Shown one piece after another: positions 22,411 to 33,968 of a DNA stretch of 64,000 nucleotides. The notes under the pieces were generated by a model. The model was not told the DNA's origin. It worked only from the letters and a program-made list of their open reading frames with translations, and ran no database searches. Source of the DNA: a phage; the NCBI GenBank assembly GCA_033239445.1, contig GCA_033239445.1_3953.1; one strand, given 5' to 3'. Position numbers and translations under genes: made by a program. The first letter of the stretch is position 1. Each line of letters opens with the position of its first letter.

Positions 22411-22603
22411 GACTGGATTTATGAAGTCAACAAAATTTTTAAAAATATTTTCGATGCTTCGTGAATAGAACGCACGTATGCGAATACACTAAAACAGAAA
22501 TCTAGTCAAGAATTATTTTTCAGTTCTCTACAAATTTTTAGCTTGACTTTTAGGAGGAAGGGGAGTAAGAGGGGATGGTGGGTCTGGCTTCCTACAGCTA
22601 CCT

Positions 22604-22815
22604 GCCTGCACAATTTGAAAATGAATTTTCCCTTTGGAGTCCAACTGCATCTGCACAAATTGAAAATGAAAAAGCTCTTTGGAGTCTAGACCTGCACGTT
22701 TTGAAAATGAATTTTCCCTTTGGAGTCCAGCTAAAGAAATCTGTCCAGAGTTCTACAAAATAATACCTGCACAAATTTGAAATGAAAAAGCCCCCCTTAC
22801 CTGAGATTTAAAACT
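22604..22815. repeat. four imperfect tandem direct repeats of about 45 bp
   Basis: Units at about 22604, 22644, 22690 and 22774 share CTGCACAA(A)TTTGAAAATGAA ... CTTTGGAGTC; non-coding region between the small-gene array and the macro-domain gene. Confidence 0.6.
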
Positions 22816-22856
22816 CAAACTTTGGAGGGCTTGTCTATATTTATCTAGGTGACTTA

Positions 22857-23651
22857 TTAGTTACGTGCTTCAACATAGTTTACGTCTTCATGTGTGATAT
22901 AATATTCTGCAAACTCTTCTGTAGTCGCATTGATATACACACTTGCATCATCACCAAACGTTACCGCTCTGTGGTAGTGGCCCTGTAACGGGTGGGTAAC
23001 TTGAGCGTTACTTTGATTGTACTTCTCAACCGGAGGGTAACTGGTGTGTACCTTGCCATTACGCTTCACCTTGAGGGTAACTTTATCCTTGCCTACCACA
23101 GCAACACCATCAAAGTATTGAGGCTCACTGAAGTTCTCCCAACCAGTAACAGGACTAGTCAACTGACTGTACATCTTATCTTCATAGACATACATATATA
23201 CGTCAACATCTTTCATGGTCTGATTAATAATGGACAGCACAGCCATACTATCAAGACCACCAATCCCTGCACCAATCATAGGGAGTCCAACCTTCTTAAG
23301 CTGGTTTACTTTACAGTAGTTGTTAAGACGCTGTAAAGCTGCTTCTAAGGCATTGTATCGTGCATTTTTTCCAGTGATAACCTGAGTATAAAGGTTAGCA
23401 ATTCGACCCTGCTTCAAACGTGCTACAGAGATGTTACCAAGCATTAGATGCTTAGGGTTATGGTTTTCACCACCTACTGTAGCATAAACTTCAGCGTCAG
23501 TTTCATAAGCTTTTGGGTAGCGTTTAGCAATTGTTGCTGCGATACCTGCACCCATCAAGTTCATGCAGTTACAACCGTGACCAATGATATCAAACTTCTT
23601 ACCATCAAAGTCTTTAAAGATATCACCTTTAATAATTTTTACGATACCCAT
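22857..23651 (-). CDS. macro-domain protein (putative ADP-ribose binding or hydrolase) with C-terminal extension
   Basis: N-terminal KGDIF ... DIIGHGCNCMNLMGAGIAATIAKRYP resembles the macro-domain core; start trimmed to ATG at 23651, which overlaps the upstream stop. Confidence 0.5.
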   Translation of the reverse strand: MGIVKIIKGDIFKDFDGKKFDIIGHGCNCMNLMGAGIAATIAKRYPKAYETDAEVYATVGGENHNPKHLMLGNISVARLKQGRIANLYTQVITGKNARYNALEAALQRLNNYCKVNQLKKVGLPMIGAGIGGLDSMAVLSIINQTMKDVDVYMYVYEDKMYSQLTSPVTGWENFSEPQYFDGVAVVGKDKVTLKVKRNGKVHTSYPPVEKYNQSNAQVTHPLQGHYHRAVTFGDDASVYINATTEEFAEYYITHEDVNYVEARN

Positions 23652-23652
23652 A

Positions 23653-23853
23653 TTAGTAATGCTCCCAACGTTCGTTATCTTCAGATGGTTTAACTCGGTT
23701 ACCTTCATGGTCTACCCATAGAGCACCGCAACCTTCACAGATTACTGGCATTGCTGAACCAGCTTCAAATTCTGCCTTTGTAAAGAGACCTTTTAAGTCT
23801 CCTGTATCTTTTCCAAACATCTCAACAGAACACTTAGTGCAGAAATCAGCCAT
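23653..23853 (-). CDS. small zinc-ribbon-like protein
   Basis: 66 aa with CxxC ... CxxC (CTKCS, CEGCG). Confidence 0.45.
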   Translation of the reverse strand: MADFCTKCSVEMFGKDTGDLKGLFTKAEFEAGSAMPVICEGCGALWVDHEGNRVKPSEDNERWEHY

Positions 23854-24392: not shown

Positions 24393-24662
24393 TCACTTCC
24401 TCGTTTTAAGGACTGCATAGATTTCTTTAGAATCTTCCCCGAACCATGTGTAGTGATTCTCGTTGATTTCAGGATGGTTGTCAACACGTATTTTGCAATC
24501 TCTTCCAACTTGTTTAAGTTGTGCAGAAACACCCTGCATAAAGATGTGACAAGTTACATCATCCATAACCGTTGGCATGATGTCAAATCTCATGTAAGTG
24601 TTACTTGGTCTTGGTAACAGAAGATAACCTTCCACAAAAAATGTTTCATTCTTCTCTGTCAT
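24393..24662 (-). CDS. hypothetical protein
   Basis: 89 aa ORF. Confidence 0.45.
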   Translation of the reverse strand: MTEKNETFFVEGYLLLPRPSNTYMRFDIMPTVMDDVTCHIFMQGVSAQLKQVGRDCKIRVDNHPEINENHYTWFGEDSKEIYAVLKTRK

Positions 24663-24928
24663 TGCTGCTTATTCCCTAACAAAATCATATCAATCAAATT
24701 GTTTGCCTTGATAGTACATTCATAGTAACCATCACGATAAAACTCAAGAGCACTTGCAAGGTCTGCACCTTTAGTACCTTTAACCTCATACCGTGCTTCT
24801 TCTTGAGTGTACTTGTCACTCTCACTTACTTGGGAGTTTTTGAAGGTACTGTTCACTTTGTTCGTTGAACACCCTGACATAAGGCTCAGTAGCACAATCA
24901 TTAATAAAGACTGTCTTAGTTTTTTCAT
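24659..24928 (-). CDS. lipoprotein, possible outer-membrane spanin (Rz1-like)
   Basis: 89 aa; signal peptide ending in lipobox LMSGC; overlaps the C-terminus of the next gene in another frame. Confidence 0.45.
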   Translation of the reverse strand: MKKLRQSLLMIVLLSLMSGCSTNKVNSTFKNSQVSESDKYTQEEARYEVKGTKGADLASALEFYRDGYYECTIKANNLIDMILLGNKQQ

Positions 24929-25169
24929 AGTTCAATACCTCTTTGGTGTGTTTGTTTTTAGCAAGCACATCTTTCAAATCATTTTTGTAATTGGAGCTAA
25001 GATTTGATAAACCTTCTTGATAAGCATCTTTAGCAACACTCACAAGTCTCTGGTTAGTTAACTCCTTTTCATTAACTTGGCTGGTCTTGTAAGTGTAACC
25101 TCCCCAAGCACCAACACCTGTTAAGAAAATGATTACAAAAGCTGCTTGACAAAATTCTTTAAACGTCAT
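24822..25169 (-). CDS. membrane-anchored protein, possible inner-membrane spanin (Rz-like)
   Basis: 115 aa; N-terminal TM helix then charged helical region; embedded-overlap arrangement with the lipoprotein gene. Confidence 0.4.
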   Translation of the reverse strand: MTFKEFCQAAFVIIFLTGVGAWGGYTYKTSQVNEKELTNQRLVSVAKDAYQEGLSNLSSNYKNDLKDVLAKNKHTKEVLNYEKTKTVFINDCATEPYVRVFNEQSEQYLQKLPSK

Positions 25170-25182
25170 TTAACTTCTCCTA

Positions 25183-25210
25183 GAAATGAAAAAGGCTCCC
25201 GAAGGAGCCT
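25183..25210 (-). terminator. rho-independent terminator (minus strand)
   Basis: On the minus strand ggctcc-ttcg-ggagcc followed by TTTTTCATTTCT. Confidence 0.65.
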
Positions 25211-25221
25211 CTATAATAACT

Positions 25222-25697: not shown

Positions 25698-26393
25698 TCA
25701 GTTTTTAACAAGCATTGTTTTGATGTGTGGTAAGATTCTTTCAACCTTCTCCACGTTCTTCACTGTATCTTCTATAAAGCATACTACATCATAGTAAGGT
25801 AGAATGCAAGACTGAAGCATACGAACTTTCAAACTTTCTGCACTAATCTCATTGTCACCAAATCCACGCATAAACAGTAGGAAATCACTGTCTACATTCT
25901 CATTCAGGAAAAGATGTGTGACAACTCTTTGTGATTCACCACGAGCAGTTAAGAATCCTATATCAGCATTTCTTGATATACCACACAGAATGTTAAAAAC
26001 ATATGTTGGTTTAGCTCTGCGAGAGTCTACCAAGTTAGTATACTGTGAGTAAGTACCATCATCTAACAAAGTTGCATTAAGTTTCTTGTCAAAGCTTGTA
26101 AGAACACCATCAATGTCTGCTAAGACCATTTTACGTTTTTCTTCCAAGTTCTTTGCAACCAAGATAAGGCTGTTACGACCAACATATACAGCTTTACCTG
26201 TTAGCAAATCCTGACAAGGAATCTGTGTCTTTGTTGAGTGGAAGTCTTCAAAGCTACACACAACATTTCTTGCTGTATCTGCAAAGTCAGCTTTAGCAAT
26301 ATCTGACCAACTTGCAGAACTGATATCTAAATCAAGTGGCTTGATATCATAAGCATGACACAGAACCATGTCAAATTGTTTTGATTCGCTCAT
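25698..26393 (-). CDS. HAD-superfamily phosphatase-like protein (possible nucleotidase)
   Basis: 231 aa; motif I-like LADIDGVL (DxDG). Confidence 0.4.
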   Translation of the reverse strand: MSESKQFDMVLCHAYDIKPLDLDISSASWSDIAKADFADTARNVVCSFEDFHSTKTQIPCQDLLTGKAVYVGRNSLILVAKNLEEKRKMVLADIDGVLTSFDKKLNATLLDDGTYSQYTNLVDSRRAKPTYVFNILCGISRNADIGFLTARGESQRVVTHLFLNENVDSDFLLFMRGFGDNEISAESLKVRMLQSCILPYYDVVCFIEDTVKNVEKVERILPHIKTMLVKN

Positions 26394-31206: not shown

Positions 31207-33024
31207 TTAAAGTTGCTTGTCAATAGTATTTCGAACATCACGCAGGTTAATGTAACCGTAAGGTTGCGAGTTGCTAAATACCAGTTTCAAAGCACTATGA
31301 CAGTTGTCAATTGCACCTTCAAACTCTGCAAAGCCAAAACCATCTACAGCTACCAGCTTGTCACCATCCCACATAGGGACAACTCCACCAAAAGCAGACT
31401 TCTTAAGACCACTGTCAGTTTTAGGGTCTTTAGCCAGCATAATTTCTTGACCATCCATCTGTGCAAGAGTTGCTTTAACAGCAAATGCAAAGGTGTCACG
31501 AGTCAGGTACTGATAGGTGTATGAGCCTACACCAAACACTACGTTAGAACTTGCAAAACCTTTATCAGCAAGACGTGACAGAATCTCATTAGCCCTTTCC
31601 AGAGTGATAGAATCACCGTAGATTAATCCAATGTGCTCATCCAGTACTTTGTACCCTTTGGAGTTAACAGTGCCACCAAAGATGTTATATAGCGTGTGGA
31701 TAGCTCCGTCAATTTCTGCTGTCAGCATACGCTTCACAGTAAACTGTCCAGTCTTCTGAGCAGTAATAAGGTTGATTGTATCAGCAGATTCAAAATCTTC
31801 TTTATCAACAACCATCTCATAACCTTCAGAGATTAGCCAAGCAGAGAACCCAAAGCCAATATCAGACATTTCACAATTCAAGATTGTGTCATGCAGATGT
31901 GTATTGTTCGGTGCAAGCTCTTTCATGTGCTTATAGAACATTGACTTAGCAGTTTCCCATTCAATGGCTTTGTAACCTGTGACAATGTGAACAGGGTCTC
32001 CAGAGTCTGGACGGATTACCAACTTACCATCACGATTCAGGATTACATTACGTAGCTCTGGCAGAATCTGTGTAACAGTACGCCAGAAGTTGTAAGTATC
32101 TGATACAACACTTGCAATACCAATTGGATAAACATCTACCAGAAGATGTTCAAAAGTTTTAACCTCACCACGCCAACGCATTGCATCAAGCAAGTTGTCA
32201 GATTGTGAAAGATGCCAATCACTTACCTCTTTGTTAAGACTGTTCCATGAGATATTTGCACACATCACAGAGTGCTCGGTGGCTGGGACAGAGTTGCCAA
32301 TCTCACCCACAGTCATATATTGACCATATGCACGTTTAGCTGTATACACAGCAGGGAAGCTGTCAGTACCTTTAAAACTTGTCAGGTGACCTACTGCGTT
32401 AAACGCATCATCTGTGAAGCCAGACATACCACGCATTGCAAAGTCATGACACTGCCAAGGTAAATGGAAGTCGTTGTCACAGGTCTTGTCAGCCCATTGC
32501 TTACAAATACGTTTGTAATGCAGTGCAATAGTTGCAATCGTACAAGCCTTCCAGATTTCAGCAGAGAAAGCATCTTCAAGGTAACCAGCTACCCAATGGA
32601 ATCCTTCTACAGTGTTTTTGAAGACAATCATCGGGACACGCATAGGGACAATTGTACCTTCCTCTACAGAGTAGACTTCAACAGGCAGGTAACCCAAGTC
32701 ATGAAGTTCTTCCCAATGTTGACGACCAATAGCATCTGCACCGAGAACACCATTCATGATTTCCAAGATTTCGTCAATGGCTTCTTTCTTATCACGTTCA
32801 AAGAACGTTGCATTCCAGTGGTCTACCAGATAGTCTTTTACAAAACGCTGAATACCAAAGGCTACAACACCATCAATCTCTAACGGAGAGTTAAACCATT
32901 TGTCTCCACGAGGGGTTAAGTTAAGCATAAGATACTGTGTAGCATCTGGATACTGGTAGATATGCCCCGCTTTATAAGCATCTGCATTAAGACCTGCTGG
33001 TACTGCATAGATTGATTTAGTCAT
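31207..33024 (-). CDS. nadV: nicotinamide phosphoribosyltransferase family protein (NAMPT/NadV-like; could equally be a Namat-type enzyme)
   Basis: 605 aa; AYKAGHIYQYPD, HDFAMRGMSG ... FKGTDS, VPATEHSVM, VVSDTYNFW and IRPDSGDP match remembered NAMPT blocks (SYKVTHYKQYPP, HDFGYRG ... FKGTDT, VPAAEHS, VVSDSYD, IRPDSGNP). Confidence 0.85.
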   Translation of the reverse strand: MTKSIYAVPAGLNADAYKAGHIYQYPDATQYLMLNLTPRGDKWFNSPLEIDGVVAFGIQRFVKDYLVDHWNATFFERDKKEAIDEILEIMNGVLGADAIGRQHWEELHDLGYLPVEVYSVEEGTIVPMRVPMIVFKNTVEGFHWVAGYLEDAFSAEIWKACTIATIALHYKRICKQWADKTCDNDFHLPWQCHDFAMRGMSGFTDDAFNAVGHLTSFKGTDSFPAVYTAKRAYGQYMTVGEIGNSVPATEHSVMCANISWNSLNKEVSDWHLSQSDNLLDAMRWRGEVKTFEHLLVDVYPIGIASVVSDTYNFWRTVTQILPELRNVILNRDGKLVIRPDSGDPVHIVTGYKAIEWETAKSMFYKHMKELAPNNTHLHDTILNCEMSDIGFGFSAWLISEGYEMVVDKEDFESADTINLITAQKTGQFTVKRMLTAEIDGAIHTLYNIFGGTVNSKGYKVLDEHIGLIYGDSITLERANEILSRLADKGFASSNVVFGVGSYTYQYLTRDTFAFAVKATLAQMDGQEIMLAKDPKTDSGLKKSAFGGVVPMWDGDKLVAVDGFGFAEFEGAIDNCHSALKLVFSNSQPYGYINLRDVRNTIDKQL

Positions 33025-33068
33025 CTTTTTATCTCTCTCAAAGTGGGGCTTTTCAGCCCCTAAAGTTG

Positions 33069-33968
33069 TTATTCAATATTTGCTACGGTCACTTGTGAGA
33101 AGTGGGAAAGACCACGGTCTTTTTCATCCCCTAGTGAGTTTGTAGTGTAGATATGGTCGATACCATTGTCAAGGAGATTTTCAACACCTTTAGAGAAAAT
33201 CCCATGAGTAACATAAAGCTCTACACGTTCTGCTCCAGCTTCACGAAGATACTTTGCAGCCTCGATAAAGGTTCGACCACCATCACAGATATCATCCAGA
33301 ATCATAACAGTCTTACCTGTTAAGTCTACATCATCAAGGATGCGCATACCAGTGATTTCACCAGTTTTCAGGTTTCGTACCTTCGCCATTGTAATATAAG
33401 GTTTCTCAACCTCTTTAGCAGCCTCTTCAGTCTTCTTAGCTGCACCTGCATCTGGAGCCACTAAGTAATCAATACGTGGGTCACTTGCAAAGTGGACTGC
33501 TGCCTCTTTTTGAGGGAGGTTGTAGAAGCTCTTAAACAAATTCTCTGCAACATTACTGTGAGTATCCAGAGCACATACTGCATCGAACTCCATAGCATTT
33601 ACAAGATTTGCAAAGACTTTAAGTGCTGCTGAATCACCTTTAAACATGTGACGGTCATAGCGAGCATTTGGTAAGAATCCAAAAAGAACAGTTTTCATGG
33701 TTGCTTTCTGAGGAATCAAGCGGTCAATAGCCTCTTTAGCCATAGCCAATGCAAAGAGTGTGTCTTTGTCATAACCTTGTACAGTGAAGATAACATTTTC
33801 AATCTTACCAGCAGCATGTTCAACAAAGCCTACTAAGTCTTCTGAGAAGTTACCACCAATCTCCCCAGAAGGGAACTGGATAATGTTGAAGGTCTCTTGA
33901 TGAGAACCTTTGGAATTTGAATTAAGTAGAACTCGAATAGTAGTTTTCATAATATATCTCTCAGTCAA
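33069..33968 (-). CDS. prs: ribose-phosphate pyrophosphokinase family protein (PRPP synthetase-like; could be an ADP-ribose pyrophosphokinase of the Adps type)
   Basis: 299 aa; FPSGE near N-terminus, VAPDAGAAKK, and PRPP-binding loop VMILDDICDGGRTF. Confidence 0.75.
   Translation of the reverse strand: MTERYIMKTTIRVLLNSNSKGSHQETFNIIQFPSGEIGGNFSEDLVGFVEHAAGKIENVIFTVQGYDKDTLFALAMAKEAIDRLIPQKATMKTVLFGFLPNARYDRHMFKGDSAALKVFANLVNAMEFDAVCALDTHSNVAENLFKSFYNLPQKEAAVHFASDPRIDYLVAPDAGAAKKTEEAAKEVEKPYITMAKVRNLKTGEITGMRILDDVDLTGKTVMILDDICDGGRTFIEAAKYLREAGAERVELYVTHGIFSKGVENLLDNGIDHIYTTNSLGDEKDRGLSHFSQVTVANIE

What the first reader, a model, noticed from the sequence alone, without database searches (positions are those of the whole stretch)
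22857..23651. Macro-domain protein in the early region
The N-terminal half matches the macro-domain core (KGDIF ... DIIGHGCNCMNLMGAGIAATIAKRYP). Macro domains bind or hydrolyse ADP-ribose and its derivatives; in a phage this suggests reversal of host ADP-ribosylation-based defence or processing of ADP-ribose from NAD+ cleavage, linking it to the NAMPT/PRS pair.
Basis: partly seen in the sequence, partly recalled or inferred. Interest (0 to 1): 0.55.

Follow-up and report, generated by a model that had tools for sequence, protein, structure and literature searches.

The report
Phage Tk.4-type macrodomain anti-defence enzyme
This gene of a Felix-O1-like (Mooglevirus) phage does encode a macro-domain ADP-ribose hydrolase, related to two recently described phage counter-defence enzymes, so the reading is correct but largely known; the only unstudied part is an extra C-terminal domain.

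Summary
Confirmed. A 264-aa protein is encoded on the minus strand at 22857-23651. Residues 1-157 are a macro domain: Pfam PF01661 scores 34 bits against a cut-off of 22, and the AlphaFold model matches TARG1, Poa1p and DarG. The window is a Mooglevirus (98% identical to Shigella phages Sf13/Sf15), where this gene is already annotated as "macro domain-containing protein" or "phosphatase".

The domain belongs to a family with the motifs HGCNC, NLYTQ and IGAGIGG. A conserved Gln sits where DarG and TARG1 have their catalytic Lys, as in SCO6735. Two members have published functions:
- T4 Tk.4 (AdfM), whose deletion sensitises T4 to DarTG2.
- Adpp of Vibrio phage Gary, an ADPR-1''-phosphate phosphatase inside NARP1 operons that defeats aRES.

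The window protein shares Tk.4's motifs and short loop. It lies 7.5 kb from the phage's NARP1-like PRS/NAMPT pair. None of about 128 NARP1-adjacent macro proteins combines NLYTQ with the short loop.

Best guess (about 0.45): it removes DarT2-made ADP-ribose from phage DNA. Main rival (about 0.25): it is an Adpp-like phosphatase feeding NARP1.

Residues 158-264 form a domain restricted to Ounavirinae-like phages, with no detectable relatives or fold match. Nothing here is categorically new.

The parts
22857..23651 (-). CDS of 264 aa plus the TAA stop: a two-domain macro-domain protein.
   Evidence: ORF list, sequence and translation. The same 795-nt CDS is annotated in Sf18 gp70, Sf13 gp59 and Mordin_127. 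Clusters that are 75-95% identical are also 263-264 aa long.
23181..23651 (-). Macro domain, residues 1-157, of the ALC1-like / Poa1p-TARG1-DarG class.
   Evidence: Pfam PF01661 at 34 bits against a cut-off of 22. Profile hits to TARG1, DarG, BT1257, Poa1p and SCO6735. AlphaFold2 model with Foldseek matches at TM 0.74-0.86 to TARG1, Poa1p and DarG.
23565..23579 (-). Motif H25-G-C-N28-C. H25 aligns with H24 of Gary Adpp. N28 aligns with active-site N23 of PhiKZ AdfM and N27 of SCO6735.
   Evidence: H25 and N28 are invariant in alignment A1.
23382..23396 (-). Motif N86-L-Y-T-Q90. Q90 occupies the position of the catalytic Lys of TARG1 (K84), DarG (K80) and PhiKZ AdfM (K78), and of Gln85 of SCO6735. 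It is followed by a short 7-residue loop.
   Evidence: Profile alignment to TARG1, MAFFT column mapping and loop lengths. The SCO6735 Q85A mutant is inactive (PMC9411070).
23256..23282 (-). P124-M-I-G-A-G-I-G-G132, the glycine-rich diphosphate-binding loop of the macro fold.
   Evidence: P124, G127 and G129 are invariant in A1. The motif aligns with PRIGCGLD of TARG1. The role of this loop is established macro-domain knowledge and was not tested here.
22860..23180 (-). C-terminal domain, residues 158-264. Predicted as a short helix, six beta-strands and a C-terminal helix. No known family or fold; restricted to Ounavirinae-like phages.
23662..23666 (-). GGGAG ribosome-binding site, 10 nt upstream of the ATG. 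The upstream gene's TAA ends one base before the ATG, so translational coupling is likely.
   Evidence: Read from the sequence. Mordin annotates a ribosome-binding site at the equivalent place.
22780..22832 (-). Terminator-like hairpin with a U-run, 25 nt after the stop codon. The macro gene would be the last gene of its transcription unit.
   Evidence: RNA fold of -21.1 kcal/mol, z = -2.3 against shuffles, followed by a U-run. The simple terminator scan missed it because the loop is long.
31207..33968 (-). Context only: a NARP1-like pair. PRS/Adps-like at 33069-33968 and NAMPT/Namat-like at 31207-33024, 7.5 kb upstream on the same strand.
   Evidence: Pfam and PHROG assignments. The PRS protein is 75-82% identical to those of several Escherichia and Salmonella phages of 86-89 kb. 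NARP1 was defined in Bas63 (preprint 10.1101/2024.02.11.579819). A functional link to the macro gene is not shown.

Best explanation
The gene encodes a catalytically competent macro-domain ADP-ribosyl hydrolase that the phage uses against host immunity. That general statement has a confidence of about 0.85.

The specific mechanism I commit to has a confidence of about 0.45: it is the Ounavirinae counterpart of T4 Tk.4 (AdfM). After infection, a host DarT2 toxin would ADP-ribosylate thymidines in single-stranded phage DNA and block replication. The macro domain would bind the ADP-ribose through its two glycine-rich loops. Asn28 and Gln90 would position the distal ribose and a water molecule, as proposed for SCO6735. 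The N-glycosidic bond would then be hydrolysed, releasing free ADP-ribose and restoring the DNA.

Shown here: the fold, family membership, conservation of the active-site residues, and the shared Tk.4 signature. Inferred: the substrate, the anti-DarT2 role and the timing of expression.

The role of the C-terminal domain is unknown. My guess is that it is a targeting or binding module.
For: - Macro fold and family.
- The closest characterised relative by identity and motifs is T4 Tk.4, at 39-40% identity over about 136 aa (E=2e-20). It shares HGCNC, NLYTQ and IGAGIG.
- A clean tk.4 knockout sensitises T4 to DarTG2, and tk.4 was the single significant hit in a transposon screen (preprint 10.1101/2025.11.20.689424).
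- Q90 and N28 align with Gln85 and Asn27 of SCO6735. That enzyme cleaves thymidine-linked ADP-ribose from DNA and is inactivated by Q85A and almost completely by N27S (PMC9411070; alignments).
- The 7-residue loop after the Gln is shared by the window protein, all 13 two-domain relatives aligned, T4 Tk.4 and most T4-like short homologues. All 11 aligned NARP1-adjacent Adpp proteins have 11-14 residues.
- In the Adpp table of about 128 entries, only 2 carry NLYTQ, and both are truncated and long-looped.
- The gene lies outside the NARP1 operon.
- The DarG profile scores the window protein at 54.5-55 bits, above T4 Tk.4 (30-36) and Gary Adpp (35-45).
Against: - No assay exists for this protein or for any Ounavirinae orthologue.
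- The T4 evidence is genetic only and comes from a preprint.
- The neighbour-joining tree does not resolve whether the Ounavirinae clade is closer to Tk.4 or to Adpp; deep nodes have bootstrap support of 6% or less.
- BLAST bit scores to an untested Adpp (JG004, 80.5) and to T4 Tk.4 (72) are similar.
- The short loop is probably ancestral, since TARG1 and PhiKZ AdfM also have it. It excludes the protein from the Adpp clade rather than proving shared function with Tk.4.
- The phage does carry NARP1, which an ADPR-1P phosphatase would complement.
- The catalytic Lys of bona fide DarG2 and of chimallivirus AdfM is absent.
Confidence: 0.45

Rival explanations
1. It is an Adpp-like ADPR-1''-phosphate phosphatase acting in trans with the phage's NARP1 pair. 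Host aRES (RES-domain) enzymes split NAD+ into nicotinamide and ADPR-1''-phosphate, which Adps cannot use. The macro domain would remove the 1''-phosphate to give ADPR, and the PRS-like Adps and NAMPT-like Namat would then rebuild NAD+.
For: - Same protein family as Vibrio phage Gary Adpp (31% identity, 64.7 bits). H25 aligns with Gary H24, a residue the authors targeted with an H24A mutation.
- Gary Adpp converts ADPR-1P to ADPR in vitro and is required for NARP1-AP to defeat aRES.
- The window encodes the NARP1-like pair.
- The three Ounavirinae-like genomes examined (this window, the P0010 contig and phiEa21-4) carry both the two-domain macro gene and a NAMPT gene upstream of rIIA. The PRS gene was seen in this window and in phiEa21-4.
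- Close homologues (at least 60% identity) of the macro protein and of PRS occur in similar numbers of phage records, 244 and 253.
- aRES was cloned from E. coli, Klebsiella and Enterobacter, which are relatives of this phage's hosts.
- PHROG 335 is labelled 'phosphatase'.
Against: - The gene is 7.5 kb and 13-14 genes from the pair, separated by a predicted terminator. Adpp was defined by lying within two genes of NARP1.
- No Escherichia, Shigella, Salmonella or Citrobacter phage appears in the Adpp table.
- 105 of about 128 Adpp entries carry YGQ rather than YTQ, and every one inspected has an 11-14-residue loop after the Gln. The window protein has NLYTQ and a 7-residue loop, like T4 Tk.4.
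- Most phages with this macro family lack NARP1: 957 Escherichia-phage records have the macro protein against 178 with PRS.
- Co-occurrence within one phage subfamily is lineage inheritance, not independent evidence.
- The extra domain is unexplained for a small-molecule phosphatase.
Confidence: 0.25
2. It is a hydrolase for another ADP-ribosylated substrate. Candidates are mono-ADP-ribosylated proteins (modified by the host or the phage), ADP-ribosylated RNA, or O-acetyl-ADP-ribose. This would be TARG1/SCO6735-like de-MARylation unrelated to DarT2 or aRES.
For: - TARG1 is the best profile and fold match.
- SCO6735, with the same Asn/Gln active site, also removes ADP-ribose from auto-modified PARP1 (PMC9411070).
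- Bacterial homologues are stand-alone genes with no DarT or any other conserved neighbour, which suggests a general housekeeping substrate.
Against: - The Lys/Asp dyad that TARG1 uses for Glu/Asp-linked ADP-ribose is absent. Its positions are Q90 and G131 here.
- No ADP-ribosyltransferase is annotated in the half of the related Sf13 genome that was inspected.
- The two phage homologues with known phenotypes point to DarTG2 and aRES instead.
Confidence: 0.12
3. It is a non-catalytic binder: a sponge or reader for ADP-ribose-derived immune signals such as Thoeris cADPR isomers or His-ADPR.
For: Macro domains can act as pure readers. For example, the type II Thoeris ThsA macro domain binds His-ADPR (preprint 10.64898/2026.06.04.730250). 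Phage sponges for such signals exist (my own knowledge).
Against: H25, N28 and Q90 are strictly conserved across phage and bacterial homologues. These are the residues whose equivalents were mutated or are required for catalysis in Adpp, SCO6735 and DarG. That pattern fits an enzyme.
Confidence: 0.05

Closest known systems
T4 Tk.4 = AdfM, 'anti-DarT factor Macrodomain' (bioRxiv 10.1101/2025.11.20.689424)
   Same: Same macro subfamily, at 39-40% identity over about 136 aa. Identical HGCNC and NLYTQ motifs, an IGAGIG loop and the same 7-residue loop after the Gln. Both are orphan phage genes with no toxin partner.
   Different: T4 Tk.4 is a single domain of 155 aa. The window protein has 107 extra C-terminal residues that are not homologous to the T4 downstream gene tk.3. 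T4 lacks NARP1 (my own knowledge). The anti-DarTG2 phenotype is shown for T4 only.
Adpp of Vibrio phage Gary, part of NARP1-AP (bioRxiv 10.64898/2026.01.28.702374)
   Same: Same Poa1p-like family, at 31% identity. The His, Asn, Gln and glycine loops are conserved. The phage also carries Adps/Namat homologues.
   Different: Adpp sits inside the NARP1 operon and has HQCNC, NVYGQ and a 14-residue loop. The window gene is 7.5 kb away and has the Tk.4 signature plus an extra domain.
SCO6735 of Streptomyces coelicolor (PDB 5E3B; PMC9411070)
   Same: ALC1-like-class macro domain with Asn plus Gln in place of the DarG/TARG1 Lys. It is an orphan with no cognate DarT. The profile match is E=2.1e-14.
   Different: It is a bacterial housekeeping protein with a longer, Lys-bearing mobile loop. 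A direct residue-level alignment to 5E3B could not be printed with the tools. The equivalence rests on the paper's structural alignment to TARG1 K84 plus my alignment of Q90 to that Lys.
DarG2 antitoxin macro domain and chimallivirus AdfM (PhiKZ gp104; PMC13309987)
   Same: Macro fold, with the Asn conserved (N28 aligns with PhiKZ N23). Both have a two-domain layout (macro plus a C-terminal domain), and DarG removes ADP-ribose from thymidine in ssDNA.
   Different: Only 21% identity to PhiKZ AdfM. The catalytic Lys is replaced by Gln. The DarG profile gives 55 bits here against 133-138 for PhiKZ AdfM and an NCBIfam cut-off of 250. The C-terminal domain shows no match to DarG's DarT-binding domain, and there is no adjacent DarT.
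Human TARG1/OARD1 and yeast Poa1p
   Same: Best solved-structure matches, at TM 0.74-0.86 normalised to the target. The His before the Asn position is shared with TARG1 and with Poa1p.
   Different: The TARG1 Lys84/Asp125 dyad is absent. These are eukaryotic proteins with cellular roles. Sequence identity is 22-25%.

Membership tests
Macro domain superfamily (Pfam PF01661) | Profile score above the curated gathering threshold. | tested here: met
   34 bits against a cut-off of 22, E=3.1e-8, residues 25-141.
Macro domain superfamily (Pfam PF01661) | Three-layer alpha/beta/alpha macro fold. | tested here: met
   In the AlphaFold2 model, 10-residue block-mean pLDDT is 78-96 over residues 1-160. 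Foldseek probability is 1.00 and TM is 0.74-0.86 to TARG1, Poa1p and DarG.
MacroD-type hydrolases | Catalytic Asp and His in the first glycine loop (GGGVDxxIH-like). The motif is recalled from my own knowledge. | tested here: not met
   The loop reads MGAGIAATIA, with no Asp or His at those positions. MacroD structures are not among the top sequence or fold hits.
ALC1-like class, Gln subtype (SCO6735-like) | Asn in strand 1 plus Gln at the position of the TARG1/DarG catalytic Lys. | tested here: met
   N28 and Q90 are invariant in A1. Q90 aligns with the Lys of TARG1 LITK and with PhiKZ K78. The definition comes from PMC9411070.
T4 Tk.4 / AdfM type | HGCNC, NLYTQ and IGAGIG motifs with a 7-residue post-Gln loop. 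| tested here: met
T4 Tk.4 / AdfM type | Single-domain protein of about 155 aa. | tested here: not met
   The protein is 264 aa, with an extra conserved domain at residues 158-264.
T4 Tk.4 / AdfM type | Protects the phage from DarTG2. | not testable with these tools
   This needs a phage knockout plated on DarTG2-expressing hosts.
DarG2 antitoxin (NCBIfam NF048014, PADLOC DarG) | Full-length equivalog score of at least 250 bits. | tested here: not met
   55.3 bits, covering profile positions 2-152 of 338 only. PADLOC gives 54.5 bits.
DarG2 antitoxin (NCBIfam NF048014, PADLOC DarG) | Catalytic Lys (K80). | tested here: not met
   Gln90 is at that position.
DarG2 antitoxin (NCBIfam NF048014, PADLOC DarG) | C-terminal DarT-binding domain and an adjacent darT gene. 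| tested here: not met
   The DarG profiles do not extend into residues 163-264. The five neighbouring ORFs that were scanned have no Pfam family and only unknown-function PHROGs, and none of the annotated neighbours in related phages is called a DarT.
Adpp / NARP1-AP | Poa1p-like macro domain with the conserved His (Gary H24). | tested here: met
   H25 aligns with Gary H24. Poa1p is among the top hits.
Adpp / NARP1-AP | Encoded within two genes of Adps/Namat, which is the operational definition in the preprint. | tested here: not met
   The gene is 7,555 bp and 13-14 annotated genes away, with a terminator-like site in between.
Adpp / NARP1-AP | Sequence signature of the NARP1-adjacent set: mostly YGQ, with an 11-14-residue loop. 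| tested here: not met
   The window protein has NLYTQ and a 7-residue loop.
Adpp / NARP1-AP | ADPR-1''-phosphate phosphatase activity. | not testable with these tools
   This needs an LC-MS assay with purified protein.

The most novel reading that the evidence does not exclude
The lineage-specific C-terminal domain may give the enzyme a second, non-enzymatic mode of action. It could bind DarT2 directly, or tether the hydrolase to single-stranded DNA or the replisome. The Ounavirinae protein would then be a convergent functional analogue of the full two-domain DarG antitoxin, built with a non-homologous second domain. In addition, the ADP-ribose it releases could be recycled by the phage's own NARP1 enzymes.
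Probability: 0.12. Interest if true: 0.55.

Novelty: new member of a known kind. Interest (0 to 1): 0.3.

Why it matters
If the protein is an AdfM-type enzyme, then Felix-O1-like phages carry a built-in answer to DarTG2. These phages are widely used for Salmonella, E. coli and Shigella biocontrol and typing. If it is an Adpp acting in trans, it would show that NARP1-AP need not be an operon, so the 15% figure for NARP1 phages with a phosphatase would be an underestimate.

Either way the gene helps predict which host defences these phages can overcome. The practical value is annotation: 'phosphatase' and 'hypothetical protein' labels in about 250 Ounavirinae genomes could be replaced by a testable function.

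The analysis also shows that two unrelated active-site types now share the name AdfM: the Lys type in chimalliviruses and the Gln type in T4. The C-terminal domain is a small, well-defined unknown that deserves a pull-down experiment.

Tried and rejected
1. The longer 283-aa ORF starting at 23708 was rejected. It overlaps the upstream gene, and homologues start at the 23651 equivalent.
3. The idea that the C-terminal domain is a fused copy of T4's downstream gene tk.3 was rejected. hhalign gives a probability of 0.2%.
4. Homology of the C-terminal domain to DarG's DarT-binding domain was not found.
6. Charge as a clue (an acidic ssDNA mimic or a basic DNA binder) was uninformative. The pI of the domain ranges from 4.6 to 9.7 across homologues.
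7. A neighbour-joining tree meant to place the protein with Tk.4 or with Adpp left the deep nodes unresolved.
8. Co-occurrence with NARP1 within Ounavirinae is uninformative, because both genes were found in all three lineages examined.
9. Bacterial genomic context gave no conserved neighbour and no DarT. A NADAR-like neighbour family occurs in 3 of 72 loci.
10. The afdb50 fold library was unavailable.
11. A direct printed alignment to DarG or SCO6735 PDB chains could not be obtained, because five TARG1 entries filled the display limit.
Full report
**The observation.** The finding's coordinates hold a minus-strand gene. The ATG is at 23651 and the TAA stop at 22857-22859, giving 264 aa. A GGGAG ribosome-binding site lies 10 nt upstream, and the stop codon of the preceding 66-aa gene ends one base before the ATG. 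A hairpin followed by a U-run lies 25 nt after the stop (-21.1 kcal/mol, z = -2.3). The gene therefore closes a small transcription unit. The same 795-nt CDS is annotated in the close relatives Sf18, Sf13 and Mordin.

**Origin of the window.** The surrounding 4 kb is 97-98% identical to Shigella phages Sf13, Sf15, Sf17 and Sf18, and 94% identical to Citrobacter phage Mordin. These are Mooglevirus, subfamily Ounavirinae, the Felix-O1-like myoviruses. In those records the gene is already called 'putative macro domain-containing protein', 'phosphatase', or 'hypothetical protein; contains macro domain'. The bare observation is therefore already in public annotation.

**Is it a macro domain?** Yes.
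- Pfam PF01661 scores 34 bits against a gathering cut-off of 22 (E=3.1e-8, residues 25-141).
- PHROG 335 ('phosphatase') matches the whole protein at E=9.5e-106.
- A profile of 23 homologues hits TARG1 (3.7e-18), M. tuberculosis DarG (8.8e-16), BT1257, Poa1p (1e-14), SCO6735 (2.1e-14) and T. aquaticus DarG.
- The AlphaFold2 model has mean pLDDT 81.8. Ten-residue block means are 78-96 across residues 1-160.
- The top Foldseek matches are TARG1, Poa1p and DarG, with TM-scores of 0.74-0.86 normalised to the target.

MacroD-type catalytic residues are absent. The protein belongs to the ALC1-like (TARG1/DarG/Poa1p/SCO6735) class.

**Active site.** Thirteen residues are invariant across the 23 aligned homologues: I23, H25, G26, N28, M33, G36, A38, N86, T89, Q90, P124, G127 and G129.
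- In both the HMM alignment to TARG1 and a MAFFT alignment with PhiKZ gp104, Q90 occupies the position of the catalytic Lys. That position is the Lys of the TARG1 LITK motif (K84) and PhiKZ K78, equivalent to DarG K80.
- N28 aligns with PhiKZ N23, equivalent to DarG N22 (published residues from PMC13309987).
- This Asn plus Gln arrangement is what PMC9411070 describes for SCO6735. That orphan bacterial macro domain removes ADP-ribose from thymidine in ssDNA. Its Q85A mutant is inactive and its N27S mutant almost so.
- H25 aligns with H24 of Vibrio phage Gary Adpp, a residue those authors targeted with an H24A mutation.

The domain has everything expected of an active enzyme. It uses the Gln-type chemistry, not the Lys-type chemistry of DarG.

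**Two published functions in the same family.**

*T4 Tk.4.* The window protein is 39-40% identical over about 136 aa to T4 Tk.4 (E=2e-20), with identical HGCNC and NLYTQ motifs. A 2025 preprint found tk.4 as the single significant hit when a T4 transposon library was challenged with DarTG2. It showed that a clean knockout becomes DarTG2-sensitive, and it renamed the gene adfM (10.1101/2025.11.20.689424).

*Adpp.* A 2026 preprint describes Adpp, a Poa1p-like macro protein encoded inside NARP1 (Adps/Namat) operons in 15% of NARP1 phages. The purified Gary protein converts ADPR-1''-phosphate, the product of the aRES defence, into ADPR so that NARP1 can rebuild NAD+ (10.64898/2026.01.28.702374). 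The Adpp sequences in its Table S1 clearly belong to the same family (H-x-x-N-C ... N-x-Y-[GT]-Q ... IG[AC]GL).

*A naming clash.* A third protein, chimallivirus AdfM (PhiKZ gp104; PMC13309987), shares the name AdfM but is a true DarG2-like, Lys-type domain. It is only 21% identical to the window protein. It scores 133-138 bits on DarG profiles, against 54.5-55 for the window protein, 35-45 for Gary Adpp and 30-36 for T4 Tk.4.

**Which function applies here?** Overall similarity does not decide. BLAST gives T4 Tk.4 72 bits, Adpp JG004 80.5, Adpp phiAbaA1 71, Adpp Gary 64.7 and bacterial orphans 80-95. In a neighbour-joining tree the two-domain Ounavirinae proteins form their own clade (58% bootstrap), and the deep nodes are unresolved.

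Three discrete features favour the Tk.4 type:
1. *Motif.* Of about 128 NARP1-adjacent macro proteins, 105 carry YGQ, 11 NAYTQ, 4 LHAQ and only 2 NLYTQ. Those two are truncated Aeromonas phage proteins.
2. *Loop length.* The loop between the Gln and the next conserved Tyr is 7 residues in four groups: the window protein, all 13 aligned two-domain relatives, T4 Tk.4 and most T4-like short homologues. It is 11-14 residues in all 11 aligned Adpp proteins and 9-10 in bacterial orphans.
3. *Position.* Adpp was defined by lying within two genes of Adps/Namat. Here the PRS-like gene (33069-33968) and the NAMPT-like gene (31207-33024) lie 7,555 bp upstream. The intervening region holds 13-14 annotated genes, including rIIA, rIIB, a lysozyme-like gene, PNK and the spanins, plus a terminator-like site at 25191-25212.

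Two caveats apply. First, TARG1 and PhiKZ AdfM also have the short loop, so it is probably ancestral. It places the protein outside the Adpp clade but does not prove a shared function with Tk.4. Second, the phage does own a NARP1-like pair. All three Ounavirinae-like genomes checked combine the two-domain macro gene with a NAMPT gene upstream of rIIA; these are this window, the 86-kb contig carrying P0010 and Erwinia phage phiEa21-4. The PRS gene was also seen in this window and in phiEa21-4.

That co-occurrence reflects lineage inheritance: 244 phage records hold a close macro homologue and 253 a close PRS homologue. Across phages generally the family is independent of NARP1, since 957 Escherichia-phage records have the macro protein against 178 with PRS.

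I therefore rate the AdfM-like DNA de-ADP-ribosylation role at about 0.45 and the Adpp-in-trans role at about 0.25. Other ADP-ribosylated substrates get about 0.12 and a non-catalytic binder about 0.05. The two main roles are not mutually exclusive.

**The C-terminal domain (residues 158-264).** This is the only unstudied part.
- *Distribution.* It is present in 264-aa proteins that are 75-95% identical, in Felixounavirus-like proteins at about 64% identity, and in 246-259-aa proteins at 34-48% identity. The more distant ones come from phage contigs with the same rIIB ... PNK ... macro synteny. It diverges much faster than the macro domain. Against the most distant two-domain proteins it is 12-26% identical, compared with 42-51% for the macro domain.
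- *Selection.* It is under purifying selection, but less strongly than the macro domain. dN/dS is 0.17-0.38 against 0.02-0.08, from small counts.
- *Relatives.* It has no Pfam or PDB sequence match. It shows no homology to DarG's C-terminal domain or to T4 Tk.3. In an exhaustive search of 1.84 billion representatives, the only genuine relative was its own family.
- *Charge.* Net charge is not conserved.

Its function is unknown. A binding or targeting role is my inference only.

**Bacterial relatives.** A scan of one genome per species confirmed 344 loci encoding relatives of the protein. In the 72 of the 80 retained loci where an HG[CA]N[CT]-motif ORF could be delimited, 61 ORFs are 140-159 aa and the rest are longer. 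The members that were aligned carry N[AG]Y[TS]Q. They occur in Bacteroidota, Planctomycetota, Verrucomicrobiota, Proteobacteria and others. No neighbouring gene is conserved: the largest shared neighbour family occurs in 6 of 72 loci, and no DarT-like neighbour was recognised among the recurrent neighbour families inspected. The phage enzymes thus derive from a widespread orphan 'repair-type' macro domain, not from a toxin-antitoxin module.

**Verdict.** The protein is a new, untested member of a family whose anti-defence roles were described in 2025-2026, with an additional orphan domain. Interest is modest.

Noticed in passing
window 22606-22791: The roughly 0.45-kb gap downstream of the macro gene holds four direct copies of a motif of about 20-42 nt (core CTGCACAAATTGAAAATGAA). 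The expected number of matches by chance is 0.02, and the motif occurs nowhere else in the window. A 62-aa plus-strand ORF (22575-22763) made of these repeats lies where relatives annotate a plus-strand hypothetical protein (Sf13 gp58, Mordin_126) and may not be a real gene. The repeats could be regulatory, but their function is unknown.
   Followed up: partly
window 23653-23853 (-): A 66-aa protein with two CxxC pairs (zinc-ribbon-like; PHROG 2210, unknown function) lies immediately upstream of the macro gene and is apparently translationally coupled to it. Its stop codon ends one base before the macro ATG.
   Followed up: no
window 31207-33968 (-): A PRS-like and NAMPT-like gene pair, homologous to the NARP1 Adps/Namat operon first characterised in phage Bas63. 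It sits upstream of rIIA/rIIB, and the same arrangement is found in phiEa21-4 and in an uncultured 86-kb phage contig.
   Followed up: partly
L087:27518-28006 versus L002:238-705: Two different proteins share the name AdfM in the literature. PhiKZ gp104 is a Lys-type DarG2-like macro domain scoring 133-138 bits on DarG profiles. T4 Tk.4 is a Gln-type domain scoring 30-36 bits. They align poorly with each other and probably use different catalytic mechanisms.
   Followed up: partly
L027:5520-6017 and two other bacterial loci: In 3 of 72 bacterial loci the Tk.4-like macro gene has a neighbour from one shared protein family. In L027 that neighbour lies directly upstream and looks NADAR/YbiA-like by eye; NADAR is the domain that reverses guanine ADP-ribosylation. 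This hints at paired de-ADP-ribosylases in some bacteria.
   Followed up: no
window 25698-26393 (-): The gene annotated 'polynucleotide kinase' matches PHROG 3970 at E=1.6e-127 but no Pfam family at E<=0.01. In related contigs only weak HAD_PNKP hits are recorded. It may be a divergent HAD-type phosphatase rather than a full Pnkp.
   Followed up: no
window 24659-25169 (-): The i-spanin and o-spanin lysis genes sit in the same-strand gene block as rIIA/rIIB and the macro gene, just downstream of a terminator-like hairpin at 25191-25212. This is an unusual place for lysis genes.
   Followed up: no
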